Source: a virus. Taken from it: a DNA stretch of 43,118 nt. The position numbers and the translations under genes were made by a program. The stretch lies in IMG/VR virus record IMGVR_UViG_3300045988_069349, one strand, 5' to 3'. Below the pieces are notes generated by a model. That model did no database searches. It was not told where the DNA came from and was given only the letters and a program-made list of their open reading frames with translations. How positions within the stretch are numbered: position 1 is the first letter of the stretch; each line of letters starts with the position of its first letter. Positions 3,005-33,237 of this stretch are shown piece after piece.

Positions 3005-4744
3005 TTATCGTGTGTTTCCCCTCATCGTGTGCGTCAGCCTGTCGTTCATGCCCGCGTCAAGCAGGGGCAGAAGCTCGCCGACCAGCGCACCATTGGATAG
3101 CCTCACATCCTTCGGCATGATGCGCCGGAGAAAGTCCATCAGCAGCCCGTTTTGCTCAATGAGCGTTCGGATGATGGCCTCGTTATCCTGCCGCACCGCT
3201 TCCCGGATGTAGGTTTGCAGCGTGTCGATAGGGGCAATAGCTTCTTTTCCGGCCTCTCCGCCGCCGAGCAGCGTGTCGCCCGTCATGCCGAAAATGGTGG
3301 GCTTGTCAAGGATGCCGCCCTCGGCGTTCCACTTCACATTAAAATTCGGCAGCTTTCCCTTGCCAGCGATTCCGAAAGGTGCTTTTCCTCCGCTGACGGA
3401 AATCTTTGGAATTTTCAGGTTGCTGAAGATTTTCCCGACCTTCAGCGGGAAAAAGCCCTTGATTTTGTCAATCACGCTTTTCACTTTTTCCCGCGCATCG
3501 TCCATCTTGTCGGTGATGGCGCTTTTGATCTTCCCGAAGGAATCCTGAACGGTTTTCACCGCGCCTTTCAGATCGTTGAATTTGCTCTTAATCCACTTGG
3601 TGGCCGAACCACATGCAGATTTGATTTTATCCCACATCGAAATCCAGAAATTTCGGAAACCCTCGTTGTTTTTCCACAGGTACAGAAAACCAGCCACAAG
3701 AGCCGCAATCAGCGTGATGATAATGCCGATGACGTTGGCCTTCATGGCGACGTTCAGCGCCTTCATGGCCACGGTGACGAGCTTGATGGCCGCCGATGCT
3801 TTCTTCATCGCGCTGGAAAAACCCATCACGGCCACAAAGCCAGAAACCGCGACCGTCGCCGCGACAATGCCCGCCTTCATAATGTCCACCGTCGTCTTGT
3901 TCTCCTTCATCCATTTGCGCATGTCCTTGATTTTGCGGATGAAGGATTCGAGCTTTGGGACGGCAGCCTCAACCATGCCCGCAACCGCGTTTTTAACGGC
4001 TGTCAGGATAGGTTCACCCACGCGCCCAAGCTCGGCCATTGCGCCGTTGAGCCTTTCCTGTGCCCGGTTTGCATCCATCACGTCCTTGTTGGTCTGCTTG
4101 TACTGGTCGGATGCGCTCTTATAGGTATTGTTCAGCGTCTCCATGATGAGCTTCTGGCGTTCCTGCTCGGTGGAGCACTTGGCCAGCTTGTCGTTAAATT
4201 CATCCTCGGATATGCCCGCCCAGTTCAGCGCATCCGCGAGCGGTCCGGTCACTTCGCCGACCTTGGCCGTTTCGTTCGCCGCTTCCGTCAGCCCCTCAAT
4301 AGGGAGTGAATCGCCGAACGTCGCAAAAACGCCCGTACAGATATCCGTCCACGTCTGCAAATCCTTTTCGTTGTCCGTCATCACAGCCAGATGGTTCGCA
4401 GCCTCAACGGAAACGTCCGTTTCGCCGAGCACGGCTTGTAAATCCTGATAGGTTTTTTTCGCCGCGTCAGAGGAATGGCCGTTGGTTACGAAGGCCGTGT
4501 CCAGCTTGCCCATTTCCGTCCGATATTCCCGGCTGCCCTCAATGGCCGCAATCCACGCTGTTCCCAGCGTCACGCCCGCAGCGACAACGGCCTTTCCGAC
4601 CTTCAGCGCTGCGCCGCCAATCTTTGAGAAGGCGGATTCCGACTTTTTCCCAGCGCCGTCCGCTTTGGCCGTCGTTTCCTCCAGCGCCCGATTGGCCTGT
4701 TCGTTGTCAATCGCGATTGTCCCCAGAATCTTGAATAGCTCCAC
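3005..4744 (-). CDS. Tail tape measure protein, first copy (TMP-1)
   Basis: ORF 3005..4768. The probable GTG start at 4744 follows GGGGGTG. The N-terminus is ELFKILGTIAIDNEQANRAL...FSKIGGAALKVG. There is a TP901-type core (FGDSLPIEGLTEAANETAKVG), a hydrophobic TM block (IIITLIAALVAGFLYLW) and a C-terminus GGEAGKEAIAPI...ALVGELLPLLDAGMNDRL. Confidence 0.85.
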   Translation of the reverse strand: MELFKILGTIAIDNEQANRALEETTAKADGAGKKSESAFSKIGGAALKVGKAVVAAGVTLGTAWIAAIEGSREYRTEMGKLDTAFVTNGHSSDAAKKTYQDLQAVLGETDVSVEAANHLAVMTDNEKDLQTWTDICTGVFATFGDSLPIEGLTEAANETAKVGEVTGPLADALNWAGISEDEFNDKLAKCSTEQERQKLIMETLNNTYKSASDQYKQTNKDVMDANRAQERLNGAMAELGRVGEPILTAVKNAVAGMVEAAVPKLESFIRKIKDMRKWMKENKTTVDIMKAGIVAATVAVSGFVAVMGFSSAMKKASAAIKLVTVAMKALNVAMKANVIGIIITLIAALVAGFLYLWKNNEGFRNFWISMWDKIKSACGSATKWIKSKFNDLKGAVKTVQDSFGKIKSAITDKMDDAREKVKSVIDKIKGFFPLKVGKIFSNLKIPKISVSGGKAPFGIAGKGKLPNFNVKWNAEGGILDKPTIFGMTGDTLLGGGEAGKEAIAPIDTLQTYIREAVRQDNEAIIRTLIEQNGLLMDFLRRIMPKDVRLSNGALVGELLPLLDAGMNDRLTHTMRGNTR

Positions 4745-10041: not shown

Positions 10042-10062
10042 AAAAAAGGCGCGTTTCGCGCC
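10042..10062 (-). terminator. Intrinsic terminator after the endolysin gene
   Basis: Minus-strand GGCGCG-aaa-CGCGCC followed by TTTTTT, starting 2 nt after the stop at 10064. Confidence 0.8.
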
Positions 10063-10063
10063 G

Positions 10064-10834
10064 TTATGCCTTTTTCGGGATTTTGATGGTTTGCCCAGCG
10101 AGAATCTTGTCGCTCTGCATGCCGTTGAGCTGCTTGATCTCTTTGTATCGGTTGCCCCTGCCAAGCATCTTTTGAGCGATGCGCCAAAGCGTGTCGCCCT
10201 TCTTCACGGTGTAGAGCGTATAATCCGCGCTTTCTTCGGGTTCTTTGGGTTGTTCCTGTTTCGGCTCTGCCGCTGTCTGTACGCCATACGCCGGACGGCC
10301 ATAGCCACAGATTCGACCGTGGGAGAGGGGATAGCTCTTTTTGAAAACTCCGCCGCCGTTTGCGACCACGCCGCTCGCGCCGGATGTATTGCCTTCGACC
10401 GTATAGACGCGGCTGCCATCTACCTTGTAGACAAGGCCAGTATGGGTTTCGCTTCCGTAAGTGCCAAAGAAGATTTGGTCTCCAACCTGTGGGGAATGGA
10501 AGAACTGTCCCTTTTGCTCGTAGTATTTACGGCTCCACTTGACACCAGCGCCCGCGTTGTTCTTGCTCACCGTCGGCTGGAAGGTCATCTTCAGCGCCGC
10601 CAGCTTGCCGTATGCCTGTACAAAGCACCAGTCCACAAACACGTCGCACCATGCCACACCCTGTTTTCGGCCATTGTAGAAGCTGATAGCATCAAGGTCG
10701 CGCGCATATTTGGTGATATTCGCATCTCCGGCGTTGGCCGTCTTATCGTCCAGCGCGTTTTTGCTGGCCTTTTCCAGATAGCCGACCTCCGCGAGGGCGA
10801 TATTCAGCACCTTTTGTCGGTCATACATCTTCAT
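10064..10834 (-). CDS. Endolysin: N-terminal CHAP-type amidase/peptidase plus C-terminal LysM
   Basis: Start MKMYDRQKVLNIALAEVGYLEK. Catalytic-type blocks GVAWCDVFVDWCF and HTGLVYKVDGSRVYTVEGNTS. P/E/Q-rich linker. LysM YTVKKGDTLWRIAQKML...LNGMQSDKILAGQTIKIP. Confidence 0.8.
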   Translation of the reverse strand: MKMYDRQKVLNIALAEVGYLEKASKNALDDKTANAGDANITKYARDLDAISFYNGRKQGVAWCDVFVDWCFVQAYGKLAALKMTFQPTVSKNNAGAGVKWSRKYYEQKGQFFHSPQVGDQIFFGTYGSETHTGLVYKVDGSRVYTVEGNTSGASGVVANGGGVFKKSYPLSHGRICGYGRPAYGVQTAAEPKQEQPKEPEESADYTLYTVKKGDTLWRIAQKMLGRGNRYKEIKQLNGMQSDKILAGQTIKIPKKA

Positions 10835-11078
10835 CCGCCCCTTCGTCGAGCGTGTCCAGCTCTTCCGGCGTTTCCTTGTCGTCCTTGCACTCCGGCAGTC
10901 CGGCAACGGAGGTCAGCAGGGAAAGCACGCCCGCCAGCGCCGCAGAGGACGCGACAAGCGCCCAATTCACGTCTCCCATAGCGGCAGACGAGCCGATGGT
11001 TGCGATGGCCGCCTGCGCCACCGTCTTGATGGCACGGATTCCGGCAGCCTTAAACCAAACTTTGAAGCAGGGTTTCAT
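10821..11078 (-). CDS. Holin (LL-H/phi-LC3-like)
   Basis: 85 aa; IRAIKTVAQAAIATIGSSA plus a second hydrophobic helix ALVASSAALAGVLSLLTSVAG and an acidic C-terminal tail. SD AAGGAG lies 8 nt upstream. It overlaps the lysin start. Confidence 0.7.
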   Translation of the reverse strand: MKPCFKVWFKAAGIRAIKTVAQAAIATIGSSAAMGDVNWALVASSAALAGVLSLLTSVAGLPECKDDKETPEELDTLDEGADEDV

Positions 11079-11106
11079 GGTTCATATCTCCTTTCAAATC
11101 CAACAT

Positions 11107-11137
11107 AAAAAGACAGCCGCGTTTGACTGTCTTTTTT
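11107..11137. terminator. Bidirectional hairpin terminator
   Basis: aaaaAGACAGccgcgtttgaCTGTCTtttttt: a 6-bp stem flanked by A- and T-runs. Confidence 0.5.
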
Positions 11138-11142
11138 GCATG

Positions 11143-11170
11143 AAAAAAGCACCATTCGATTGAACGGTGC
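11143..11170 (-). terminator. Intrinsic terminator after the small MuF-partner ORF
   Basis: Minus strand: TAA GCACC-gttcaatcgaat-GGTGC TTTTTT, directly after the stop at 11171-11173. Confidence 0.65.
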
Positions 11171-11335
11171 TTACTTCAAAACCTTTTTGATATCATCAAT
11201 TTTGATTTCTTCCGTGTATGTGTCTCCGTCTTTATCTATATCGGCCAGAAACGCGCGGCCTTCGTCGAAAATCTCAACGATAGAAGCCCGGTTTCCATCC
11301 TTCAGGAGAACACGGTCATATTGTTCGATTTTCAT
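11171..11335 (-). CDS. 54-aa DUF4926-like small protein (candidate immunity/partner of the MuF C-terminal module); not in the ORF track
   Basis: Manual translation gives MKIEQYDRVLLKDGNRASIVEIFDEGRAFLADIDKDGDTYTEEIKIDDIKKVLK. ATG 11335..11333 overlaps the MuF stop (ATGA). SD AAAGGAGG lies 8 nt upstream. A terminator follows. Confidence 0.55.
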   Translation of the reverse strand: MKIEQYDRVLLKDGNRASIVEIFDEGRAFLADIDKDGDTYTEEIKIDDIKKVLK

Positions 11336-12618
11336 TCCTTCGGCCTCCTTTTCGTTACATAGATGCTCGTCATTCTCTTGCCGCCGTTCCCATCATCAAT
11401 CCACGCAGTCAGCACATTGGCCTGTTTTCCGTTCAGGCCAGTGAGCAAAAGGATTTGTTCGTATCTCATGCCGTGGCCAGCATCGCCTTTTTCGATAAAT
11501 GCCTCATCGTCAAGGTGATCGAGAACATCCTGTACAAGGGTTTCAGCATCGCGCAGCGTATAGCCCAGCGCCTTTTCAAAAGCAGCAGCTTTGTCAGGCG
11601 CTTTTTGCGGGTTCAGAGCATAGCCAGATAGTTTCATTTGGGGAATGGCGAGTTTGCGCTTTCCTTCGTATCTGATTATACCACTTTTTTCAGTATTTTC
11701 AACGGTTTCAGCGGCTTTCATGTACTTCTTTTTGAAGTCCTCGAAGCTCTCCGTCTTATCCAGCCCGAAGAACTCCGCCCGCTGCTTCAGCGTCGCCAGC
11801 TCATCCGCATCCAGCGCCGCCCGTGCGCGGGTCAGCGCCACGCAGCGGCAGTTGCAATCTTGCGACGGGTCGCCGAAAGCGCCCGGAATATTCACCTTTA
11901 TTCCGTTCACCTCGAAGGGTTCATCCGTCTCCCGGATTTGCCCATCAAGCGCCCGGTGCAGAGGCCGTGTCTTTCCGTCAAGGCTTGCGTCCCATTGCTT
12001 CACAACGTCCGCACCCTTGGCCTTTGCAGCCTGTCGCGCGTCCTCGGTGGAGGCTTGCTGAATCCTGTGGCCTTCCGTGCGGACAATGCGCTTTGCGTTG
12101 GCAAGCGGCAGCGTGGAAAACATGGACACGTTCCGCGCGATCTGGTCATAGGGCAGCGAAGAAGCAAGCCCTCGCGTGATTTCCTCGCGGACGTGTTTCT
12201 TCAGCTTGTCCATATCATAGCCCAGCGCCGCGTACAGGTTTGTGGATAGCTTGCTGTCCGTGACAACCGCTTTCACCGCCGCCCGCTGGTCAATGGGCGT
12301 TATGATGGGGATTCCCTGACCGTGCAAGCCGTACATCGTGCCGACATACGCTTCCGTGTAGCTGTGGGAAAGATAATCCTGAATGCTGCTGAACTCATCG
12401 CCTTGCAGCTTATCCAGAATAGCCTCGATTTGCGCCTTGAGCGCCTTCTGGTACTGGATTTGATAAGCCCGCGATTGCGTCAGCTCATCGCTTTGCAGCA
12501 TCCTGATTTTATCGTTGATGTCCCGCAGCGCCCGCGCATACTGGCGCTTGAGATCAAGCAGCACGGCCTTTTCGTTGTCAAGCTGGCTTTGGATGACCTC
12601 TTTTTCGGCTTTATTCAC
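11332..12618 (-). CDS. MuF/SPP1 gp7-family minor head protein with an extra C-terminal DUF6883-like module
   Basis: MuF blocks: AKRIVRTEGHRIQQ, VKQWDASLDGKTRPLHRALDGQ, PSQDCNCRCV. Residues ~318-428 form a separate module: KLSGYALNPQKAPDKAAAFEKALGYT...GMRYEQILLLTGLNGKQANVLTAWIDD...RMTSIYV. Confidence 0.85.
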   Translation of the reverse strand: MNKAEKEVIQSQLDNEKAVLLDLKRQYARALRDINDKIRMLQSDELTQSRAYQIQYQKALKAQIEAILDKLQGDEFSSIQDYLSHSYTEAYVGTMYGLHGQGIPIITPIDQRAAVKAVVTDSKLSTNLYAALGYDMDKLKKHVREEITRGLASSLPYDQIARNVSMFSTLPLANAKRIVRTEGHRIQQASTEDARQAAKAKGADVVKQWDASLDGKTRPLHRALDGQIRETDEPFEVNGIKVNIPGAFGDPSQDCNCRCVALTRARAALDADELATLKQRAEFFGLDKTESFEDFKKKYMKAAETVENTEKSGIIRYEGKRKLAIPQMKLSGYALNPQKAPDKAAAFEKALGYTLRDAETLVQDVLDHLDDEAFIEKGDAGHGMRYEQILLLTGLNGKQANVLTAWIDDGNGGKRMTSIYVTKRRPKE

Positions 12619-12818: not shown

Positions 12819-14327
12819 TTATGCCTCCAATTCTGCCGTAAGTTCGGCGTACAGGTCATTGATGGTCTTTTCGGCTTTTCTCACGTTGCATTTGTAAGTT
12901 GCTTCCAGCCCCGCACCATCCGTGGCTTGCAAGACGGTCGTCGGCGCGTAGGTAGTCAGTGATTTGTATGCGGCGATTTCAGCCGGGGTGAGCGGGGTCT
13001 CGACGGGGGTGGCGAGACAGTAAAAGATAAAGGATTTCACATTCGTTAGTAACTGCTTAAAGGCTTCAAGCGATGAATACTCAGAACTTGGCGGGAAACT
13101 AACAGTGATTTCCTGATTGTTGGCGTATATCTTCGGGAGGTTCTGAATGTTGTCATTCCAGGTAACATTCTTAAAAGGTAGTATGTTGCAAATAGACGGA
13201 AAAGAATTTTTACTAGCATCTTCACCATATACACGCGTTTGAAAATTGTTGTTTCCGCTGGCTAACTTTTGATACGCCCACTTGTCATCAGGGCTTAACT
13301 CTTTCACTTTCACCCTCTGCACTCGTACCCCTCTCTCCAAGTCCACCTCATCGCACACCCACTGCTGGCCGCTTTGGTCAGTGTAGTTGCCGCCGGAGGT
13401 GACGGGGATGCCGGGTAAACCATTGGGAGTAGAGAGCGTGAGGAGCTGTTCACGGTAGGGTTCATAAGATGTAGCTTTTGAACCCATTTCCAGCTGGACA
13501 TCATATACTTTATCTCCCGCAACGGTGTCATATAAAATAAAACCTACGTTTTCCACATCTCTTTTGGGAACAAAATTAACAAAACCAATATTTGCAAGTA
13601 TAATGTTGTTGATTTCACCATTCGTGTATTTTAAACATACAAATTTATTTCTTGAACTACTGGCTGTGGTTTTTAATGAAAATGTGTAAGTATTACCCGC
13701 TTTTAAACGCAACGGTCTAGCACCAACAGAAGTAGGGTCTATGTCTATTTGCATAGTAGATGCTGTTGCTATATATGTTCCTTCTTTTTGCTCGACGTTT
13801 CCTACTGATAATGTTTTAAAATTATCCCATAAATTTCTACCTGATACTTTCACCGTCACATTTCCGCCGTCACCAGCGCTCACGATAGGCACAGGCGCAT
13901 CCGGCGTGGGCGTGCCGTCCTGCGTACTCTTGCCGTAGACGTGTAACGCTTTTAGTGCCTTCCCACCGATGCAGTTCTCCAGTATGAGGGGATTTCCGGA
14001 AAGCGTCACATCCTCGCCGGATGCAGCCTCGAAAAGAATCTTATCCTCTCTTGTGATGGGTTCGGGCAGTTCGTCATCCCATACGCCCGCCATTGCCGCC
14101 ACGTACTTTTCAAGGCGCGTGTTGGGCTTTGGCGGCACGATGGACTTATCGCGCACGGATGCAATCAGCTTTTCGAGGGTCGTGTGCAGCTCTGGTCGGG
14201 TGTCCAGATGTCCGCACGCATAGCAGCAGCATTTTTCCAAATTTCTCAACGGTTCCGGCATATCTGCCGAGCTATCCGCCAGCACCCGCAGAAATCTTTG
14301 TAATCTTGTAATCGGTTCAATGCTCAT
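12819..14327 (-). CDS. Fibre/receptor-binding-like structural protein (lectin/jelly-roll-like repeats), located in the head module
   Basis: 502 aa. N-terminal repeated P.(T/N)RLEK motifs; TLSGNPLILENCIGGKALKALHVYGKSTQDGTPTPDAPVPI; QLEMGSKATSYEPY is a fibre-type block. The centre is AT-rich. Confidence 0.5.
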   Translation of the reverse strand: MSIEPITRLQRFLRVLADSSADMPEPLRNLEKCCCYACGHLDTRPELHTTLEKLIASVRDKSIVPPKPNTRLEKYVAAMAGVWDDELPEPITREDKILFEAASGEDVTLSGNPLILENCIGGKALKALHVYGKSTQDGTPTPDAPVPIVSAGDGGNVTVKVSGRNLWDNFKTLSVGNVEQKEGTYIATASTMQIDIDPTSVGARPLRLKAGNTYTFSLKTTASSSRNKFVCLKYTNGEINNIILANIGFVNFVPKRDVENVGFILYDTVAGDKVYDVQLEMGSKATSYEPYREQLLTLSTPNGLPGIPVTSGGNYTDQSGQQWVCDEVDLERGVRVQRVKVKELSPDDKWAYQKLASGNNNFQTRVYGEDASKNSFPSICNILPFKNVTWNDNIQNLPKIYANNQEITVSFPPSSEYSSLEAFKQLLTNVKSFIFYCLATPVETPLTPAEIAAYKSLTTYAPTTVLQATDGAGLEATYKCNVRKAEKTINDLYAELTAELEA

Positions 14328-14339
14328 GGTTCATCACGC

Positions 14340-15788
14340 CTATTCTTCCAGATTTGCGTTGTCAAGCTCTTTTTGCACCTGATAGAGCGGCAGCCCGGTT
14401 TCGTCCTCCTTCGGCACTTTGTCCTTGATCTCGTCATAGTCGATTTCAAGCTGCTCGCAGATGAGCTTCAGCCGGGTTTCGTCGTCGATGGTAGAGGCAA
14501 GGCTCAAAATGGTGTTGATCTCTGCCGCCCGCCGCTGGGCTTTGGTCAGCTCAATGGTCGCCTGTTCCGCTTCGTTGACGATGGTTTCACGCTTAAAACA
14601 GAAGTAAACGTCCGATTGCTGATAGTCCGTGCCGTTATCATGGTTAATTTCCGCAAGCACGATTTTCAGCATCCGGCGCATGAATTGCTTCAAGCGGATT
14701 TCGAGCATGTTGCACTTGAGATCGAGCAGCGAATAGGCCGCCTTGATGGCGATGCTCACCGTCGCCCCCGTGTCCTTCAGGCTTTCCATGTTCACGCCCA
14801 TGCCAAAGCGGAAAATGTTCTTTTCGTCGGTTTCCATCTTGGCCTTTCGCGCCTCGATGGGAATGTCCACCGTCTGCACGTTGACGTTTCCGCCTTCGCC
14901 AACGCCGACAACCTTTTTCGCCCGGATGTTCTGCATCAGCTCGTCGAGGTTGTCCCCATCGAAGCCCGTGACGACATATAGTGCCTCGTTTGTGTCCTCG
15001 ATATTGTTGGAGAGGCCACAGTTCATCACATCGTAATCGTCAATCATGGCTTTGATGGTGGCAATGTCGCTGCGCTGCTTGCGGTTGTTATCCAGCCGGA
15101 TAAAGGGAATTTCGCCATAATTGCCCATATAGAGCTTTTCGCCCTTTTGATAGAGAATGTGCGGCCTTGGGTTGTCCTTTTCCGATTCATCCAGTTCAAT
15201 TTCGCCGTCCTCGATCTGGGTATAAAACCACGTCTGCGTTTTGTCCCACACCTGAATCCGCTTGATAGCACGGGAATCCTTATCGAATCGGTCAATGTAC
15301 CAGTAAATCAGATAACCGCACTGGTCAGCCGTTTCTTTGGCTCGTACTTCGACCACGCCGAGGCTGTCCGCTGCTTGAAAGTGCGTCTTCCCGTCCTCAC
15401 CCTTGAAGGCATAGGCATATTCAAAGCCCTTGACGATGCTCCCCGTCAGGATTTCGTTCAGCTCTGCGATGAAATCCTCGTTCTCGTTGAAGTAATCGTC
15501 AAGCTCGTTTTGCAAATCCGGGTCATCCGAGCGGATAAATCCATCATTGCAGGATAGCAGGTATTGAACCGCTTGGTCTGCCAGCTCTTTGAAGAAGGGA
15601 TGCGGAATTTTCGTGTTCACCTTGGTTTTATCTTCTTCCAAAACGCCGTCGGCATTGAAAAAGAAAATCCTCTTTTTCAGAATGTCGTGCTGGCCTTCAT
15701 AATACCGCTGGCCAACCATCGCAAGCTGCTTTTTCTTGCTGCACTTGTCAGCCTCGATAAATGTTCTGATTTCCTCGACCGTCAGCAT
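14340..15788 (-). CDS. Portal protein (SPP1 Gp6-like)
   Basis: ORF 14340..15797. ATG 15788 follows AAAGGCGGTGAAACCG. MLTVEEIRTFIEADKCSKKKQLAMVGQRYYEGQHDIL is a typical portal N-terminus. 482 aa, directly after terL. Confidence 0.9.
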   Translation of the reverse strand: MLTVEEIRTFIEADKCSKKKQLAMVGQRYYEGQHDILKKRIFFFNADGVLEEDKTKVNTKIPHPFFKELADQAVQYLLSCNDGFIRSDDPDLQNELDDYFNENEDFIAELNEILTGSIVKGFEYAYAFKGEDGKTHFQAADSLGVVEVRAKETADQCGYLIYWYIDRFDKDSRAIKRIQVWDKTQTWFYTQIEDGEIELDESEKDNPRPHILYQKGEKLYMGNYGEIPFIRLDNNRKQRSDIATIKAMIDDYDVMNCGLSNNIEDTNEALYVVTGFDGDNLDELMQNIRAKKVVGVGEGGNVNVQTVDIPIEARKAKMETDEKNIFRFGMGVNMESLKDTGATVSIAIKAAYSLLDLKCNMLEIRLKQFMRRMLKIVLAEINHDNGTDYQQSDVYFCFKRETIVNEAEQATIELTKAQRRAAEINTILSLASTIDDETRLKLICEQLEIDYDEIKDKVPKEDETGLPLYQVQKELDNANLEE

Positions 15789-15813
15789 CGGTTTCACCGC
15801 CTTTCGCTCTTTC

Positions 15814-29262: not shown

Positions 29263-30051
29263 TCAGCTCTTGCCAACAAACTTGTTGATGAAATAAACCT
29301 GCCCCTTGCCCGTCACCTTTGCCGTGCGGTTGATGGTGATGTGGCCGTCGGCGTGGGTGATGGTCGTTTCCTTGACCTCGAAGAGCTTCATTTCCATGCT
29401 CCGCTGGGTGGGGCTGTTATACGACGCGCCCTTCTGGCTGATGAGGTACTTGTTTTCCCGCAGCCATTGGAAAAGCCGCTTCTGGCCGATATCCACGCCG
29501 TTCTGTTTCAGCAGCTTGGCGAGGTCTCCGATGAGGATTGACGTTTTGCTCGCGCTGACCGCATCCGCGAAAAGTGCCTTCGGGTGCATGGCCTCGATTT
29601 GCTTCTCCTGCACCTCGATCTGCTTATCCCGCGCCGCAATCTTCCGCTGGGCGACCATCAAGGCGTTGGCCAGCAGCTCGTCGTCCGTCATGGTTTCCTG
29701 CCCGACGATGTAGCCGCCATTTTTGCGGATGCTGGGGATAACTTCGTGGGTAATCCAGCGCTTGAAGGCTTTCGCCTCCGGCTTCCGGCTGCCGAGTACC
29801 AAACTGTAAAGCCCCGGTTCATTGATAATGGAAACTTGGTCATTGCCTCTGCTGATGCCCTTAATTGAAATAAGGGCTTTTTCATCATCATCAAGGCGAC
29901 GGATTGTATTTGTCACCTGTCCGAGGTCAAGCGCTCTGCATACGTCAGCCGCCACAAACCACGGCTGGCCTTCCTTTGCAACCGTCCGCACCTGCCCAAA
30001 CTGGGCATTTTCAAAAACCTGCAATCCTTCCAAACTGTTCGCCTCCTGCAT
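29263..30051 (-). CDS. Antirepressor (BRO-N plus KilAC/ANT domains)
   Basis: LQVFENAQFGQVRTVAKEGQPWFVAADVCRALDL (BRO-N). C-terminal LIGDLAKLLKQNGVDIGQKRLFQWLRENKYL (KilAC). ATG 30051 lacks an SD. TTG at 30033 after GGAGG is an alternative start. Confidence 0.8.
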   Translation of the reverse strand: MQEANSLEGLQVFENAQFGQVRTVAKEGQPWFVAADVCRALDLGQVTNTIRRLDDDEKALISIKGISRGNDQVSIINEPGLYSLVLGSRKPEAKAFKRWITHEVIPSIRKNGGYIVGQETMTDDELLANALMVAQRKIAARDKQIEVQEKQIEAMHPKALFADAVSASKTSILIGDLAKLLKQNGVDIGQKRLFQWLRENKYLISQKGASYNSPTQRSMEMKLFEVKETTITHADGHITINRTAKVTGKGQVYFINKFVGKS

Positions 30052-30307: not shown

Positions 30308-30336
30308 ATAATACTATTCTGAAATAATTTTGTCAA
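30308..30336 (-). promoter_or_regulatory. Early lytic promoter (cro-like operon)
   Basis: On the minus strand: TTGACA (rc 30331-30336), 17 nt, TATTAT (rc 30308-30313). Confidence 0.7.
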
Positions 30337-30367: not shown

Positions 30368-30395
30368 TTGCTTTATTGTGCTTTAGGTGTATAAT
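30368..30395 (+). promoter_or_regulatory. Repressor-gene promoter
   Basis: TTGCTT (30368-30373), 16 nt, TATAAT (30390-30395). Confidence 0.65.
30376..30390. promoter_or_regulatory. Switch operator copy overlapping the repressor promoter
   Basis: TTGTGCTTTAGGTGT, with a degenerate right half. Confidence 0.45.
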
Positions 30396-30417
30396 ATTAG
30401 GTGAAGGAGGTGAACAC

Positions 30418-30774
30418 ATGGATAACAAAGACGTTTTCGCCCGAAATTTGAGAGAGTATATGCAGATCAAAAAAAAGAGCCGCCGGGAGGTATGCGACGA
30501 TCTCGGTTTCAGCTATTACACGTTTTCGGACTGGGTGAACGGGAAGAAATATCCGAGGATGGACAAGGTGGAAATGCTCGCCAATTATTTCGGAATCCAG
30601 AAATCCGACCTGATAGAAGAAAAGCCGCCGGAAGAGCAGCAAAAAAAGCCCGACGCAGACGAGGGGCTTTCCGACAATATGCGTGAGCTTATGGATTTTG
30701 TGCGGACTGTCCCGGAAGACAAGGCGGCGATGATTCTATCAGTAATTCGGACAATCGTGGAATCTGGAAAATAA
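30418..30774 (+). CDS. CI-like XRE-family repressor (no S24 peptidase domain)
   Basis: ATG 30418 after GAAGGAGG. MDNKDVFARNLREYMQIKKKSRREVCDDLGFSYYTFSDWVNGKKYPRMDKVEMLANYFGIQKSDLIEEK, followed by a short C-terminal helix domain. Confidence 0.75.
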   Translation: MDNKDVFARNLREYMQIKKKSRREVCDDLGFSYYTFSDWVNGKKYPRMDKVEMLANYFGIQKSDLIEEKPPEEQQKKPDADEGLSDNMRELMDFVRTVPEDKAAMILSVIRTIVESGK

Positions 30775-31803: not shown

Positions 31804-33237
31804 ATGTCAATCATAGAAGAGCAAGTCAAAAGAAATCAGTATATCGAGGAAGTCGCCGCCTATATCCGCGTGTCCACGCAGGAGCAAAAGCTACACGGCA
31901 TATCCATTGAGGCGCAAATTGAGAAGCTGACGGAATACGCCGAAAAGCACGGCATGAAGATCGTCGAGTGGTACAAGGATGAAGGTGTGTCTGGCCGCAA
32001 GCTCATCAAAAAGCGCCCTGAATTGCAACGCATGATACAGGACGCAGAAAAAGGAAAATTCAAGCGCATCATCTTTATTAAACTCGACCGCTTCTTCCGC
32101 TCCGTCGCCGAGTATCACGAGTGCATGAAGCGCTTGGCTGTCGGCGGCGTGATCTGGACGGCCACCGAGGAAAAATACGACCTTTCCACTCCGTCCGGCG
32201 AGGCTTTCGTCAATATGAAGCTCACGATGGCGCAATTTGAGGCCGACCAAGCCGGAGAACGTATCCGCATGGTCAATGAATACAAGATCAAATCCGGCCA
32301 GCCGCTCTTTGGCGCGCAGTGCTTGCCGTTCGGGTATACGGTTTCCGCCCCGGAAAATGGCGAGCGTCACAAGTACATCGCCAAAGAGCACGAAGAAATC
32401 GCGATGGACTTAATCAACCACGCTCTGACACATGGAGCAATCAGGGGCGCGATGTCCTATGTAAATAACAAATACGGTATGAGTTTGAGCTATAACGCGT
32501 GTATAAACATGCTCAAAAACGAAATGATTTGCGGAGAATACAAGGGAAATCCGAATTACTGTGAGCCGTACATCAGCCGCGAAGAATTTGACCGCTTGCA
32601 AAAGCTCATTTCCAGAACGCCAAGGGACACAGGCGAAAAAAGAACCTATATTTTTTCCGGGTTGATTCTCTGCCCAAATTGCGGAAGGCGGCTTACAGGT
32701 GGGACGCACAGTCCAAACAAAGGGATAAGAAACGTCACATATAAGACATATAGATGCAACTCAAAACTCCGCGATAAAAAATGTGATTATGGGAATACCG
32801 TGTTTGAAGAAACCCTTGAAAAAGTCCTCCTTGATAAAATCGAAAGCATTGTTGACAGAAAAATGATTGAAGTAAATGCTATCGAAGCGGAAAGCGAAAA
32901 AACAAGCAAATATAATGTCGCCGAGTTACAGGCCGAGCTAGACCGCCTCAATTACTCATGGCAGAAAAATCGCATCAAATCCGCCGAGGAATATGATCGG
33001 AAATATGATGCCATCGTGGAGAAAATCGAAGCGGCACAAGCCGAGCAGCAGCAAATGGGTCATGTCGATTATGAACGGATTCAATGCCTTTTTCAATCCG
33101 GCTGGCGTGATCTGTATAACTCGCTGGACGATGAACACAAGCGCTCTTTCTGGCGTTCCTTCATCGAAGAAATTGAAATCGACTGGGGCAAAGGCAGATA
33201 CGGAAAAAGGGATATCAAAGACATTACTTTTTTTTGA
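31804..33237 (+). CDS. int: Large serine recombinase (phage integrase)
   Basis: AAYIRVSTQEQ carries the catalytic Ser, followed by a resolvase domain (GVSGRKLIKKRPELQRMI), a recombinase domain, a zinc ribbon CPNCGRRL...YRCNSKLRDKKCDY and a C-terminal coiled coil. Confidence 0.9.
   Translation: MSIIEEQVKRNQYIEEVAAYIRVSTQEQKLHGISIEAQIEKLTEYAEKHGMKIVEWYKDEGVSGRKLIKKRPELQRMIQDAEKGKFKRIIFIKLDRFFRSVAEYHECMKRLAVGGVIWTATEEKYDLSTPSGEAFVNMKLTMAQFEADQAGERIRMVNEYKIKSGQPLFGAQCLPFGYTVSAPENGERHKYIAKEHEEIAMDLINHALTHGAIRGAMSYVNNKYGMSLSYNACINMLKNEMICGEYKGNPNYCEPYISREEFDRLQKLISRTPRDTGEKRTYIFSGLILCPNCGRRLTGGTHSPNKGIRNVTYKTYRCNSKLRDKKCDYGNTVFEETLEKVLLDKIESIVDRKMIEVNAIEAESEKTSKYNVAELQAELDRLNYSWQKNRIKSAEEYDRKYDAIVEKIEAAQAEQQQMGHVDYERIQCLFQSGWRDLYNSLDDEHKRSFWRSFIEEIEIDWGKGRYGKRDIKDITFF

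What the first reader, a model, noticed from the sequence alone, without database searches (positions are those of the whole stretch)
11171..12618. MuF head protein fused to a DUF6883-like C-terminal module, plus a coupled 54-aa DUF4926-like ORF: candidate capsid-delivered toxin/immunity pair
The MuF core (RTEGHR, W.A..DGKTRP.H..LDG, CNCRC) ends near residue 262. After a linker, residues ~318-428 (nt ~11335-11667) form an independent module: KLSGYALNPQKAPDKAAAFEKALGYT...GMRYEQILLLTGLNGKQANVLTAWIDD...RMTSIYV. From memory this fits the DUF6883 signature. A 54-aa ORF absent from the ORF track starts in an ATGA overlap with the MuF stop. It has a strong SD and is followed by two terminators. Its sequence (YDRVLLKDGNRASIVEIFDEGRAFLADIDKDGDTYTEEI) looks like the SH3-like DUF4926 family. 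As I recall, that family is often the genomic neighbour of DUF6883 proteins. MuF/gp7 proteins are packaged in capsids and ejected with the DNA. MuF proteins carrying C-terminal polymorphic toxin domains with downstream immunity genes have been described for temperate Firmicutes phages. As far as I know, this particular domain pair has no assigned activity.
Basis: partly seen in the sequence, partly recalled or inferred. Interest (0 to 1): 0.7.

Follow-up and report, generated by a model that had tools for sequence, protein, structure and literature searches.

The report
Phage head-protein toxin with immunity gene
A temperate gut-bacterial phage carries a swappable predicted RNase toxin on the end of a capsid protein, followed by its own small antidote gene; this kind of system is already known, but here the cassette appears to carry its own promoter and terminators, which could explain how lysogens stay immune.

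Summary
A 428-aa MuF minor head protein (11332-12618, minus strand) has Phage_Mu_F at residues 141-261 and DUF6883 at residues 322-423, the latter above Pfam's cut-off. A 54-aa ORF (11171-11335) overlaps its stop codon as ATGA and is followed by two hairpin terminators.

The toxin/immunity reading is supported by computation only:
- MuF proteins at least 98% identical over their first 300 residues carry unrelated C-termini (DUF6883, Ntox50, two unknown types, or none).
- DNA homology with these sibling phages breaks at 11675 and resumes at the 54-aa ORF's stop codon, and the small downstream ORF changes with the C-terminus.
- The C-terminal model resembles BECR-fold CdiA tRNase toxins.
- The 54-aa protein models as an SH3/KOW-like barrel and is a remote DUF4926 relative, although it is below Pfam's own threshold.

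This is a member of the known MuF polymorphic toxin class (Jamet 2017). A 2026 preprint already reports the MuF/DUF6883/DUF4926 association.

One feature appears to be new. A near-consensus sigma-A promoter (TTGAAA-N16-TGgTATAAT, 11702-11675) lies inside the coding linker, exactly at the left cassette boundary. It is conserved in front of at least 9 unrelated toxin classes. With the terminators, it probably forms a separate transcription unit for the immunity gene.

The parts
11332..12618 (-). MuF-family minor head protein gene, 428 aa. It consists of the SPP1 gp7-like core, a linker, and a C-terminal toxin domain.
   Evidence: ORF. Pfam Phage_Mu_F E 8.8e-19. PHROG head and packaging families. 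About 40% identical to SPP1 gp7 over the core. Lies downstream of the portal gene (14340-15797), with two ORFs in between, in a packaging and head module.
11836..12198 (-). Phage_Mu_F domain, residues 141-261.
11675..11702 (-). Sigma-A/sigma-70-type promoter-like element inside the MuF reading frame. The -35 is TTGAAA (11702-11697), the spacer is 16 nt, and the extended -10 is TGgTATAAT (ending at 11675). It is encoded by the linker peptide V-E-N-T-E-K-S-G-I-I.
   Evidence: It is the only site in the 43-kb window, on either strand, with 11 of 12 hexamer matches plus the TG. It is conserved at the same position in relatives. Homology with sibling phages ends at 11675.
11173..11674 (-). Swappable toxin-immunity cassette: the DNA that is replaced as a block in sibling phages.
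   Evidence: blastn against L012, L013, L014 and L016 gives 96-98% identity up to 11675, which then resumes at 11172, 11171 or 11156. GC is 45-50% in the cassette against 54-63% in the flanks.
11350..11655 (-). DUF6883 / 'BECR-Tox3' domain (MuF residues 322-423), a predicted BECR-fold ribonuclease toxin.
   Evidence: Pfam 44.8-48.3 bits against a cut-off of 27. AlphaFold2 model pLDDT 86.8. Foldseek top PDB hits are the CdiA-CT tRNases 6vek/6cp8/6cp9, TM 0.49-0.60, probability 1.0. Invariant residues: K329-x3-Y333, K343, K377, K398, R415, Y420.
11171..11335 (-). 54-aa cognate immunity candidate: an SH3/KOW-like beta-barrel, remotely related to DUF4926, translationally coupled to MuF by the ATGA overlap and with its own AGGAGG Shine-Dalgarno sequence at 11349-11344.
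   Evidence: 129 homologue clusters. (pLDDT 94.9, five strands). (NusG KOW and Tudor domains, TM 0.7-0.8). (link to DUF4926). (a partner found in 40 DUF6883 loci; Mantel r 0.49, 0 of 2000 permutations reach it).
11147..11172 (-). Intrinsic terminator 1 (an 11-bp stem, AAGCACCGTTC/GAATGGTGCTT, then a U-tract), starting inside the stop codon of the 54-aa ORF. It is the conserved right-hand boundary of the cassette.
   Evidence: The same AAGCACC...GGTGCTT-TTTT stem follows the small ORF behind different cassettes in relatives.
11101..11142 (-). Second hairpin, flanked by an A-tract and a U-tract (terminator 2, possibly bidirectional), upstream of the holin gene.
   Evidence: In L013 a 70-aa ORF is inserted between the two hairpins, at window position 11138/11137.

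Best explanation
This is a MuF-family polymorphic toxin cassette in a temperate siphophage of gut Clostridia.

The MuF protein is a homologue of SPP1 gp7. It is inferred to sit at the portal in a few copies per capsid and to leave the capsid with the DNA. Its last ~113 residues are an exchangeable BECR-fold ribonuclease domain (DUF6883 / BECR-Tox3). The closest solved folds are the CdiA-CT tRNases of E. coli 3006 and K. pneumoniae 342, so the most likely activity is tRNA or other RNA cleavage in the newly infected cell (inferred).

The overlapping 54-aa gene encodes the cognate immunity protein, a small SH3/KOW-like barrel related to DUF4926. It is inferred to bind and block the toxin.

Shown here: the toxin domain and the immunity gene are replaced together as one ~0.5-kb block among otherwise 96-98% identical phages.

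The block is bounded on the left by a near-consensus sigma-A promoter written into the codons of the conserved linker. It is bounded on the right by tandem intrinsic terminators.

Inferred mechanism:
- In lysogens, where the late operon is silent, host RNA polymerase starts at about 11668. It transcribes the toxin-coding segment as an untranslated leader, because that segment has no start codon with a Shine-Dalgarno sequence.
- Ribosomes translate only the immunity gene, using its own AGGAGG.
- Transcription stops before the holin and endolysin genes that lie directly downstream.
- During lytic growth, the immunity gene is translated by coupling to MuF, which protects the producing cell.

The expected result is that lysogens are immune to the toxin delivered by sibling virions, while non-lysogens are not.
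For: Identity of the parts: Pfam Phage_Mu_F and DUF6883, both above their cut-offs.

Fold of the toxin domain:
- The model has pLDDT 86.8.
- Its best PDB matches are the CdiA-CT EC3006 and Kp342 toxins (E 6e-4 to 3e-3, TM 0.49-0.60), followed by BrnT and HigB.
- Those toxins use K, Y, H, R and T active sites and cleave tRNA-Ile (PMC9086364).
- The DUF6883 family keeps an invariant K-x3-Y on the first helix and R-x-T/S...Y on the last strand.

Polymorphism:
- Searches show different C-termini on MuF N-termini that are at least 98% identical.
- The breakpoints fall at 11675 and 11172/11171.
- The downstream ORFs of the alternative cassettes (79, 65 and 65 aa) are unrelated to the 54-aa family, with E > 0.07.
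- An orphan MuF 3' fragment with its own toxin and immunity pair sits behind the cassette in L002.
- GC content dips across the cassette.

Partnership between toxin and small ORF:
- 40 DUF6883 loci, including non-MuF and distant-MuF contexts, have a member of the small-ORF family directly downstream.
- The pairwise distances of toxin and partner are correlated: r 0.49, with 0 of 2000 Mantel permutations reaching it. The partial r controlling for the MuF core is 0.51.

Promoter:
- It is the best promoter match in the window.
- In loci chosen only by DUF6883 homology, a score of at least 11 of 13 occurs in most of the 210-nt upstream windows, against 1.5% of 2806 background windows.
- In loci chosen only by MuF N-terminal homology, 17 of 23 proteins with a 90-190 aa extension carry it, against 4 of 30 others (Fisher p = 1e-5). 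It precedes 9 unrelated toxin classes.
- The hexamers and the TG are conserved while the spacers vary. The -35 occurs in two codon phases (V-E-N with a 16-nt spacer, L-K-K with a 17-nt spacer), which argues for selection on the DNA rather than on the peptide.
- Genuinely standalone DUF6883 genes have the same kind of promoter in the intergenic region upstream.

Terminators.

Temperate lifestyle.

Literature: the MuF toxin class and the model of delivery by injection come from PMC5576092 and PMC5512222. The DUF6883/DUF4926/MuF association comes from the preprint read.
Against: Nothing here is experimental. RNase activity, toxicity, neutralisation, virion incorporation and injection are all inferred.

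- The fold match is moderate (TM about 0.5-0.6, about 12% identity). The family has no invariant histidine, unlike EC3006, Kp342 and colicin D, so the chemistry may differ or the domain may only bind RNA.
- The 54-aa protein itself fails Pfam's DUF4926 cut-off.
- The promoter is a consensus match only. The junction is also a likely recombination site, so part of its DNA conservation (for example the invariant ACC and AAA codons outside the hexamers) may come from recombinational homogenisation. That synonymous-site test was also biased, because the loci were selected for an exact -10.
- Outside this MuF clade (phiFL4A, IPP27) the motif is weaker or is not at the domain junction.
- Scaffold and capsid genes lie downstream of the terminators, so late transcription must read through them by a mechanism not identified here.
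Confidence: 0.75

Rival explanations
1. The domain is an injected effector used for host takeover or anti-defence, not a weapon between bacteria. The MuF-borne RNase would cleave host tRNA, mRNA or defence RNAs (for example CRISPR RNAs) immediately after injection, for the phage's own benefit. The small protein would only protect the producing cell during virion assembly and switch the effector off after infection.
For: Iyer et al. 2017 propose this for MuF- and portal-fused PBECR RNases (PMC5512222). Jamet et al. 2017 also consider an influence on the lysis-lysogeny decision (PMC5576092). A host sigma-A promoter in front of the immunity gene would also fire early from incoming DNA, which would limit the toxin to a short pulse (inference).
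Against: Cassette swapping among 96-98% identical phages, with matched immunity genes and an orphan module, is the pattern expected for kin discrimination and competition. It is less expected for a conserved takeover function. Siblings with no C-terminal extension (299-311 aa MuF) exist on backbones that are otherwise the same or closely related, so the domain is dispensable for infection.
Confidence: 0.2
2. The promoter-like junction is not a promoter. It would be a conserved linker peptide (for example a processing or flexibility motif, analogous to VENN in CdiA) or a DNA homology handle for cassette recombination. The immunity gene would then be expressed only from late transcripts.
For: The motif lies exactly at the recombination breakpoint. 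Codons just outside the hexamers (ACC, AAA) are also invariant. The linker is rich in Lys, Asn, Glu and Ile, and so A/T-rich, which favours chance promoter-like strings. In distant MuF toxins the motif is not at the junction.
Against: Conservation is bipartite, with variable spacers. The -35 is kept in two different codon phases, with a Glu-to-Lys change in the peptide. The wobble base before the G of the TG is T across 7 different codons. The peptide varies (SGII, SDII, SAII, DDIM, ADII, LSII, CII) while TATAAT does not. Truly standalone DUF6883 genes carry an equivalent intergenic promoter. A strong terminator pair directly after the immunity gene is best explained by transcription that has to be stopped there.
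Confidence: 0.3
3. The cassette acts inside the lysogen as a type II toxin-antitoxin, abortive-infection or addiction module. The internal promoter would express a free toxin domain together with the antitoxin.
For: Standalone DUF6883 plus small-ORF pairs with their own promoter exist outside phage head modules. One example is L018, next to cellular genes. The BECR fold is shared with the RelE, HigB and BrnT toxins.
Against: In the window, the predicted transcript starts at about the codons for R316 and Y317. That is downstream of where standalone proteins start, and there is no start codon with a Shine-Dalgarno sequence for the domain. The only in-frame ATG (M325) has no Shine-Dalgarno sequence, and a product starting there would lack the first beta-hairpin of the model. 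Several apparently standalone hits were MuF fusions split by gene calling or by assembly gaps (L017 and L020).
Confidence: 0.08
4. The C-terminal module and the small ORF are structural or assembly accessories of the head, with no toxic activity.
For: MuF proteins are morphogenesis factors. Phage Mu's own MuF C-terminal domain is described as an inactive BECR domain (PMC5512222). DUF6883 has no invariant histidine.
Against: Siblings with at least 98% identical MuF N-termini replace the module with the known toxin domain Ntox50, or lack it altogether. The small ORF co-varies strictly with the module. Invariant K, Y, R and T/S residues occupy positions on the helix and strand that are typical of BECR active sites.
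Confidence: 0.05

Closest known systems
MuF polymorphic toxins of temperate phages (Jamet et al. 2017, PMC5576092)
   Same: An N-terminal Phage_Mu_F domain in the packaging and head module next to the portal. A variable C-terminal toxin domain. A small downstream ORF of under 150 aa as the presumed immunity gene. A temperate Bacillota phage.
   Different: The DUF6883 domain did not exist as a family at that time. That paper contains no occurrence of the word 'promoter' and does not say how immunity is expressed in lysogens. Here the cassette has an embedded promoter and flanking terminators.
BECR-Tox3 / DUF6883 with downstream DUF4926 (bioRxiv 10.64898/2026.08.28.747851, 2026)
   Same: The same triad is described: DUF6883 reclassified as a Colicin-like BECR RNase family, commonly followed by DUF4926, and often fused C-terminally to Phage_Mu_F.
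   Different: The preprint's evidence comes from profiles and gene neighbourhoods only. In the passages read it reports no cassette breakpoints, no promoter or terminator, and no experiment. The window's small protein is a shortened relative that falls below the DUF4926 threshold.
CdiA-CT EC3006 and CdiA-CT Kp342 tRNase toxins with their CdiI immunity proteins (PDB 6CP8/6VEK and 6CP9)
   Same: These are the best structural matches to the model. They have the BECR fold with a K...Y pair on the N-terminal helix and R and T residues near the C-terminal strands. Each is encoded with a cognate immunity gene directly downstream, as a polymorphic C-terminal cassette.
   Different: About 12% identity. 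They are delivered by type V secretion in Proteobacteria. Their active sites include a histidine that is not conserved in DUF6883. Their CdiI proteins are unrelated to the SH3-like 54-aa protein.
PBECR domains fused to MuF or portal proteins, and the Mu F C-terminal domain (Iyer et al. 2017, PMC5512222)
   Same: Phage BECR RNase domains attached to MuF and predicted to be packaged and injected. There is a weak fold match to a 'Phage MuF C-terminal domain' protein in BFVD (probability 0.96, TM 0.42).
   Different: [quoted passage not shown] They were interpreted as anti-host effectors. The passages read mention no dedicated immunity gene for them.
Apk2 (MuF-(p)ppApp synthetase) with the immunity proteins IapK and Aph1 in a Streptococcus pneumoniae prophage (PMC12226406)
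   Same: An experimentally validated MuF toxin whose C-terminal domain is toxic and is neutralised by the products of downstream genes.
   Different: A different toxin chemistry (nucleotide pyrophosphokinase) and two immunity genes. In the passages read, 'promoter' refers only to the vector promoters PBAD and PTET.
Nuclease colicin operons (for example E3 and E9), in which the immunity gene has a constitutive promoter inside the colicin structural gene (own knowledge; Cascales et al. 2007, Colicin Biology)
   Same: The same regulatory logic is proposed here. The toxin is made only on induction, while immunity is made constitutively from a promoter embedded in the toxin's coding sequence.
   Different: A plasmid-borne bacteriocin under SOS control in Enterobacteria. 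The proteins are not homologous. This is an analogy, not membership.

Membership tests
MuF polymorphic toxin (Jamet 2017) | N-terminal Phage_Mu_F (PF04233) domain | tested here: met
   68.8 bits against a cut-off of 29.6, residues 141-261. About 40% identity to SPP1 gp7.
MuF polymorphic toxin (Jamet 2017) | Gene lies in the DNA-packaging and head module of a temperate tailed phage | tested here: met
   Gene order is TerS, TerL, portal, two ORFs, MuF ... scaffold, capsid. Serine integrase, repressor and Ant are present.
MuF polymorphic toxin (Jamet 2017) | The C-terminal domain is variable among orthologues and is drawn from a toxin repertoire | tested here: met
   N-termini at least 98% identical carry DUF6883, Ntox50 (82.5 bits), two unknown C-termini, or none. 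At least 9 unrelated classes occur in the clade.
MuF polymorphic toxin (Jamet 2017) | A small cognate ORF lies immediately downstream and changes with the toxin | tested here: met
   The 54-aa ORF overlaps the stop codon. The alternative cassettes have unrelated 79-, 65- and 65-aa ORFs. 40 DUF6883 loci keep the same partner family.
MuF polymorphic toxin (Jamet 2017) | The C-terminal domain is toxic and is neutralised by the downstream protein; the protein is present in virions | not testable with these tools
   Requires expression, binding and virion proteomics experiments.
DUF6883 / BECR-Tox3 | Match to PF21814 above the gathering score | tested here: met
   44.8 bits for the whole protein and 48.3 bits for the module alone, against a cut-off of 27. 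Profile positions 7-110 of 110 are covered.
DUF6883 / BECR-Tox3 | BECR fold (N-terminal helices packed on a 4-stranded antiparallel sheet) | tested here: met
   The model (pLDDT 86.8) has a beta-hairpin, three helices and four strands. The top PDB hits are BECR toxins 6vek/6cp8/6cp9 at probability 1.0 and TM 0.49-0.60, followed by BrnT and HigB.
DUF6883 / BECR-Tox3 | A catalytic constellation typical of Colicin-like BECR RNases (His/Lys on the pre-alpha helix, His/Thr/Ser on the last strand) and RNase activity | tested here: inconclusive
   K329-x3-Y333 on the first helix and R415, T417/S418 and Y420 on the last strand are invariant or nearly so, resembling the K/Y/R/T residues of EC3006 and Kp342. 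No invariant His is present. No structural superposition of the residues could be done. Activity was not tested.
DUF4926 | Match to PF16277 above the gathering score | tested here: not met
   15.8 bits against a cut-off of 29.1, E 0.009. None of the 129 close homologues has a precomputed Pfam hit.
DUF4926 | Homology shown by profile comparison or through intermediates | tested here: met
   16 of 71 and 9 of 21 relatives hit DUF4926 at E <= 0.01. The partner of the DUF6883 gene in L054 scores 42.3 bits. hhalign of A3 against A5 gives 99.1% probability, E 6.6e-19.
DUF4926 | Small SH3-like beta-barrel | tested here: met
   The model has pLDDT 94.9 and five strands. It matches NusG KOW and Tudor domains at TM 0.7-0.8.
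Type II toxin-antitoxin module | An autonomous operon from which both the free toxin and the antitoxin are translated in the host cell | tested here: not met
   In the window the toxin domain has no start codon or Shine-Dalgarno sequence of its own downstream of the internal promoter. Standalone relatives such as L018 do have this organisation.

The most novel reading that the evidence does not exclude
In this MuF clade, every swappable toxin cassette would be a self-contained immunity-expression unit. A host sigma-A promoter is written into the codons of the conserved pre-toxin linker. The toxin-coding segment then serves as an untranslated leader, the immunity gene has its own Shine-Dalgarno sequence, and a conserved terminator pair stops transcription before the adjacent lysis genes. 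This would explain how lysogens stay immune while the late operon is silent. It would also explain why the cassette boundaries are so sharp: the two homology arms are the promoter and the terminator themselves. I found no description of this for MuF toxins in the papers read.
Probability: 0.55. Interest if true: 0.6.

Novelty: new member of a known kind. Interest (0 to 1): 0.45.

Why it matters
MuF toxins are a large class of phage-borne polymorphic toxins in gut Bacillota, and few of them have been tested experimentally. This locus, together with its near-identical siblings, forms a natural swap series. The same phage backbone carries DUF6883, Ntox50, two unknown C-termini, or none. That makes it a clean system for testing whether capsid-delivered toxins act in competition between lysogens and non-lysogens.

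The embedded promoter and terminator architecture, if real, addresses a question the original description left open: how is an immunity gene that sits in a late structural operon expressed in a lysogen? It also gives a simple sequence signature (TTGAAA-N16/17-TGnTATAAT in frame as x-I-I/M, ~90-150 codons before the stop codon) for finding toxin domains of unknown family in MuF genes. The predicted RNase and its SH3-like inhibitor have no solved or characterised relatives.

Tried and rejected
1. Sequence search of solved structures with profiles of both proteins found only chance-level hits: a chemokine and telomere factor for the toxin, NOP53 for the small protein.

2. A tblastn search with the DUF6883 module found no match in 50,697 GenBank phage records. 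No cultured phage carrying this module was found.

3. An Rfam scan of 10900-11800 found only sub-threshold sRNA matches that lie on the terminators. I treat these as chance.

4. NCBIfam added nothing beyond a sub-threshold gp7 domain hit.

5. The many short 'standalone' DUF6883 proteins first suggested a free toxin family. On inspection, several are fragments of MuF fusions: L017 has a continuous frame and L020 has a 100-N assembly gap. Only some are truly standalone (L018, L035, L040, L043, L049, L051).

6. I tried to extend the junction promoter to distant MuF toxins. Flavonifractor phage Chenonceau has TGaTATAAT 100 codons before the stop codon but a weak -35. In phiFL4A (MuF fused to an ADP-ribosyltransferase domain, annotated VIP2) and IPP27, the best matches are weaker or lie inside the domain. 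I therefore restrict the claim to this clade and to DUF6883 loci.

7. The synonymous-codon test is partly circular, because the loci were chosen for an exact -10. I use it only as a supporting observation.

8. I considered an internal translation start for a free toxin and rejected it, because there is no Shine-Dalgarno sequence and the product would be truncated.

9. Prediction of the toxin-immunity complex was not possible.

10. The ORFs on the plus strand that overlap the region (for example 11638-12249) are shadows of the minus-strand genes and were not pursued.
Full report
**Observation**

On the minus strand, a 428-aa ORF (11332-12618) is followed by a 54-aa ORF (11171-11335). The small ORF's ATG overlaps the upstream TGA, giving ATGA, and an AGGAGG sequence lies 8 nt upstream of it.

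Pfam places Phage_Mu_F at residues 141-261 (E 8.8e-19) and DUF6883 at residues 322-423. The DUF6883 match scores 44.8 bits, or 48.3 bits for the module alone, against a cut-off of 27. PHROGs assigns the large protein to head and packaging families. The 54-aa protein reaches only 15.8 bits on DUF4926 (cut-off 29.1, E 0.009). It does match an uncharacterised PHROG at E 6.5e-7.

The sequence downstream of the small ORF folds into two tandem hairpins with U-tracts (dG -32.7 kcal/mol, z = -7.0).

**Is the small ORF a gene, and is it the partner of DUF6883?**

The small ORF has 129 homologue clusters at 63-98% identity, and one of them is recorded in 405 blocks of the assembly collection. In every context inspected, it overlaps the stop codon of a MuF-DUF6883 gene. 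That gene sits in a module ordered portal, MuF, small ORF, holin, endolysin, scaffold, capsid.

I then scanned one genome per species with a profile of the toxin module. This returned 38 loci, nearly all from Clostridia (Oscillospiraceae, Lachnospiraceae, Acutalibacteraceae, Defluviitaleaceae) plus a few Bacilli. Across these and earlier loci, 40 DUF6883 genes have a member of the same small-protein family directly downstream. Pairwise distances of toxin and partner are correlated (r 0.49, with 0 of 2000 Mantel permutations reaching it). The partial correlation controlling for the MuF core is 0.51.

The link to DUF4926 is real but remote:
- 16 of 71 relatives from an exhaustive profile search hit DUF4926, and no other family recurs to that extent.
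- 9 of 21 divergent DUF6883-linked partners also hit it.
- The partner in a Syntrophomonadaceae locus passes the curated cut-off at 42.3 bits.
- hhalign between the window's family and the divergent partner set gives 99.1% probability.

The model of the 54-aa protein (pLDDT 94.9) is a five-stranded barrel. It superposes on NusG KOW and Tudor domains at TM 0.7-0.8.

**Is the C-terminal module polymorphic?**

Yes, and this is the strongest evidence for a toxin cassette. I searched with the first 300 MuF residues alone. Among proteins 98-100% identical over that stretch, five types appear:
- 428-aa proteins with DUF6883;
- 436-aa proteins with Ntox50 (82.5 bits);
- 413-aa proteins with an unknown C-terminus;
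- 404-aa proteins with another unknown C-terminus, which has a weak DUF4258 hit;
- 299-311-aa proteins with no extension.

All of the longer types diverge right after the shared linker ...KAAETVENTGKSGII.

At the DNA level, the window is 96-98% identical to four such sibling phages up to position 11675. Identity resumes at 11172, 11171 or 11156, which is at or just downstream of the stop codon of the 54-aa ORF. The replaced block, 11173-11674, therefore contains exactly the toxin domain and the small gene.

The small ORFs behind the other C-termini (79, 65 and 65 aa) are unrelated to the 54-aa family. The cassette has 45-50% GC, against 54-63% in its flanks.

One relative (L002) carries an orphan module directly behind its DUF6883 cassette. 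It is a MuF 3' fragment starting at residue ~221, fused to a JAB-like domain and followed by a 110-aa ORF. Orphan modules of this kind are known from CDI and Rhs loci.

**What is the toxin?**

The AlphaFold2 model of residues 307-428 (pLDDT 86.8) has a beta-hairpin, three helices and a four-stranded antiparallel sheet. Its only PDB matches with Foldseek probability 1.0 are the CdiA-CT toxins of E. coli 3006 and K. pneumoniae 342 (E 6e-4 to 1e-2, TM 0.49-0.60). BrnT and HigB follow at lower scores.

Those two CDI toxins are BECR-fold tRNases that cleave uncharged tRNA-Ile. Their active sites are K204/Y208/H256/R260/T330 and K157/Y160/H170/R252/T255 (PMC9086364).

The DUF6883 alignment keeps K329-x3-Y333 invariant on the first helix. 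R415 and Y420 are invariant on the last strand. K343, K377 and K398 are also invariant. There is no invariant histidine.

An RNase, probably a tRNase, is therefore the best inference. The chemistry is not settled. Neither protein has a sequence relative among solved structures.

In BFVD, the same domain occurs in gut-phage 'minor capsid proteins' and once behind a metallopeptidase-annotated N-terminus. There is only a weak match to the Mu F C-terminal domain.

The consensus scan found one promoter-like site in the region: TTGAAA, 16 nt, TGgTATAAT, on the minus strand at 11702-11675. It lies inside the MuF reading frame and is encoded by V-E-N-T-E-K-S-G-I-I. It is the only site in the whole window, on either strand, with 11 of 12 hexamer matches plus the extended -10 TG. 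Its last base is also the last base of homology with the sibling phages.

Two unbiased surveys support it:
- **Loci chosen only by DUF6883 homology.** The best score in the 210 nt upstream of the domain (12 hexamer positions plus 1 for the TG) is at least 11 in most loci. Only 1.5% of 2806 background windows reach that score. In MuF fusions the motif sits 53-63 nt before the domain core, inside the ORF.
- **80 viral contigs chosen only by MuF N-terminal homology (52-99% identity).** 17 of 23 distinct proteins with a 90-190 aa extension score at least 11 at the junction, against 4 of 30 with short or long extensions (Fisher p = 1e-5). Nine mutually unrelated toxin classes sit behind the same motif.

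Among 31 distinct junction DNAs, the hexamers and the TG are constant while the spacers vary. The -35 occurs in two codon phases: GTT GAA AAx (V-E-N/K, 16-nt spacer) and TTG AAA (L-K/N, 17-nt spacer). The base before the G of the TG is T in seven different codons. The encoded peptide varies (SGII, SDII, SAII, DDIM, ADII, LSII, CII) while TATAAT does not. Truly standalone DUF6883 genes have an equivalent promoter in their upstream intergenic region.

The rest of the architecture is also constant. After the motif come ~90-150 codons of toxin domain, then a small ORF that mostly overlaps the MuF stop codon (by 4, 8, 11 or 14 nt). In most loci the small ORF is followed by a terminator whose stem, AAGCACC...GGTGCTT-TTTT, is conserved behind different cassettes.

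**Proposed mechanism**

What is shown:
- the MuF fusion;
- the matched exchange of toxin domain and small gene;
- the promoter-like and terminator elements at the two cassette boundaries;
- the temperate gene set: serine integrase at 31804-33237, HTH repressor at 30376-30774, Ant at 29263-30051.

What is inferred from the literature on MuF proteins and SPP1 gp7 (PMC5576092, PMC5512222): the protein is packaged in a few copies at the portal and enters the next host with the DNA. There, the RNase domain would act unless the cell already makes the cognate inhibitor.

What is inferred from the anatomy:
- In a lysogen the late operon is off, but host RNA polymerase can start at the embedded promoter.
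- The transcript begins at about the codons for R316 and Y317, so the toxin segment has no start codon with a Shine-Dalgarno sequence. The only in-frame ATG, M325, has no Shine-Dalgarno sequence and would give a product that lacks the first hairpin.
- Only the immunity gene is translated.
- The tandem terminators stop this constitutive transcription before the holin (10821-11078) and endolysin genes directly downstream.
- During lytic growth, the immunity gene is translated by coupling to MuF.

This logic parallels the constitutive immunity promoter inside nuclease colicin genes (own knowledge).

**Weak points**

- The promoter is a consensus match. The junction is also a likely recombination site, which could homogenise its DNA. 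My synonymous-codon test was biased by how the loci were selected.
- Outside this clade the motif is weaker or is not at the junction.
- Late transcripts must somehow pass the terminators to reach the scaffold and capsid genes.

**Comparison with what is known, and novelty**

The locus meets every computationally testable criterion of the MuF polymorphic toxin family of Jamet et al. 2017. A preprint from August 2026 already states three things. DUF6883 is a Colicin-like BECR family ('BECR-Tox3'). It is commonly followed by DUF4926. It is often fused to Phage_Mu_F. Iyer et al. 2017 had earlier predicted that MuF-fused BECR RNases are injected.

The finding is therefore a correct identification of a new member of a known kind. 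No characterised or cultured representative was found: the module has no match in GenBank phage records.

Three things seem to be new:
- the precise cassette boundaries;
- the natural swap series on one backbone;
- the embedded promoter plus terminator design. Jamet et al. never mention a promoter. In the Apk2 paper, the passages read mention only vector promoters.

**Verdict**

Interest is moderate. The class is known and the domain pairing has been published as a prediction. The immunity-transcription-unit hypothesis is testable and would answer an open question about how MuF toxin systems work in lysogens.

Noticed in passing
window 12819-14327 (-), especially 13016-13846: The 502-aa ORF between the portal and MuF genes has conserved ends and a hypervariable centre. 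The centre does not align with sibling phages that are otherwise 94-98% identical; in them the ORF is 470, 497, 519 or 363 aa, or is split into 185 + 228 aa. GC in the centre falls to 32-46%. The only family hit is a weak PHROG 'virion structural protein' match (E 2e-7), with no Pfam hit. This may be a second exchangeable module in the head region.
   Followed up: partly
window 10064-11078 (-), with terminators at 11147-11172 and 10048-10062: A holin (r1t-like) and a CHAP-LysM endolysin sit inside the head-morphogenesis module, between the MuF/immunity genes and the scaffold gene. They are bracketed by intrinsic terminators, and no strong promoter of their own was found. The position is conserved in relatives even where the holin and endolysin types differ (Phage_holin_5_2 with NlpC/P60-PG_binding_1). 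How late transcription passes these terminators to reach the scaffold and capsid genes is unexplained.
   Followed up: partly
L002 5205-6386: An orphan cassette lies directly after the DUF6883/immunity pair. It is a MuF 3' fragment (matching residues 221-307, 69% identical) fused to a domain with a JAB/RadC-like HNHPGS motif (called as a 242-aa ORF), followed by a 110-aa ORF.
   Followed up: partly
L001 1-1185: A second MuF-type gene (429 aa, followed by 66- and 65-aa ORFs) lies upstream of the portal region, where related contigs have the large terminase. Its DNA matches the window's MuF up to the same junction at 11675.
   Followed up: no
L013 4536-4748; L014 4443-4793: Extra small genes are inserted at the right edge of the cassette. 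In L013 a 70-aa ORF lies between the two terminator hairpins (window position 11138/11137). In L014 a 116-aa YjcQ-family ORF follows the presumed immunity gene of the 404-aa MuF type. The terminator region looks like an insertion hot-spot.
   Followed up: no
BFVD entry A0A8S5MSY7: The DUF6883-type domain (61% identical, TM 0.79) also occurs at the end of a 316-aa viral protein annotated as a zinc-binding metallopeptidase. The domain is therefore not confined to MuF carriers.
   Followed up: no
window 30336 (-), 24521 (+), 13576 (+): These are the other three sites in the window with 11 of 12 promoter hexamer matches. The site at 30336 lies between the divergent repressor (30376-30774, +) and anti-repressor (29263-30051, -) genes and is probably the early or lytic switch promoter. 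The site at 13576 lies antisense inside the low-GC variable part of the 502-aa ORF.
   Followed up: no
L142 (Flavonifractor phage Chenonceau) about 3512-3540; L141 (Streptococcus phage IPP27) about 4002-4031: Two cultured phages with distant MuF proteins also have an in-frame extended -10 (TGaTATAAT as S-D-I-I; TGcTATAAT as N-A-I-I). It lies 100 and 52 codons before the MuF stop codon, with weak -35 elements. The C-terminus of the Chenonceau protein resembles the 404-aa sibling type (...NPDTG..VT.WKTG). Chenonceau could serve as an experimental system.
   Followed up: partly
L059 (IMGVR_UViG_3300045988_064444, 43117 bp): This sibling genome is 99% identical over the first 300 MuF residues and differs in length from the window by a single base pair. 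It carries the Ntox50-type cassette instead of DUF6883, which makes the two a natural isogenic-like pair.
   Followed up: no
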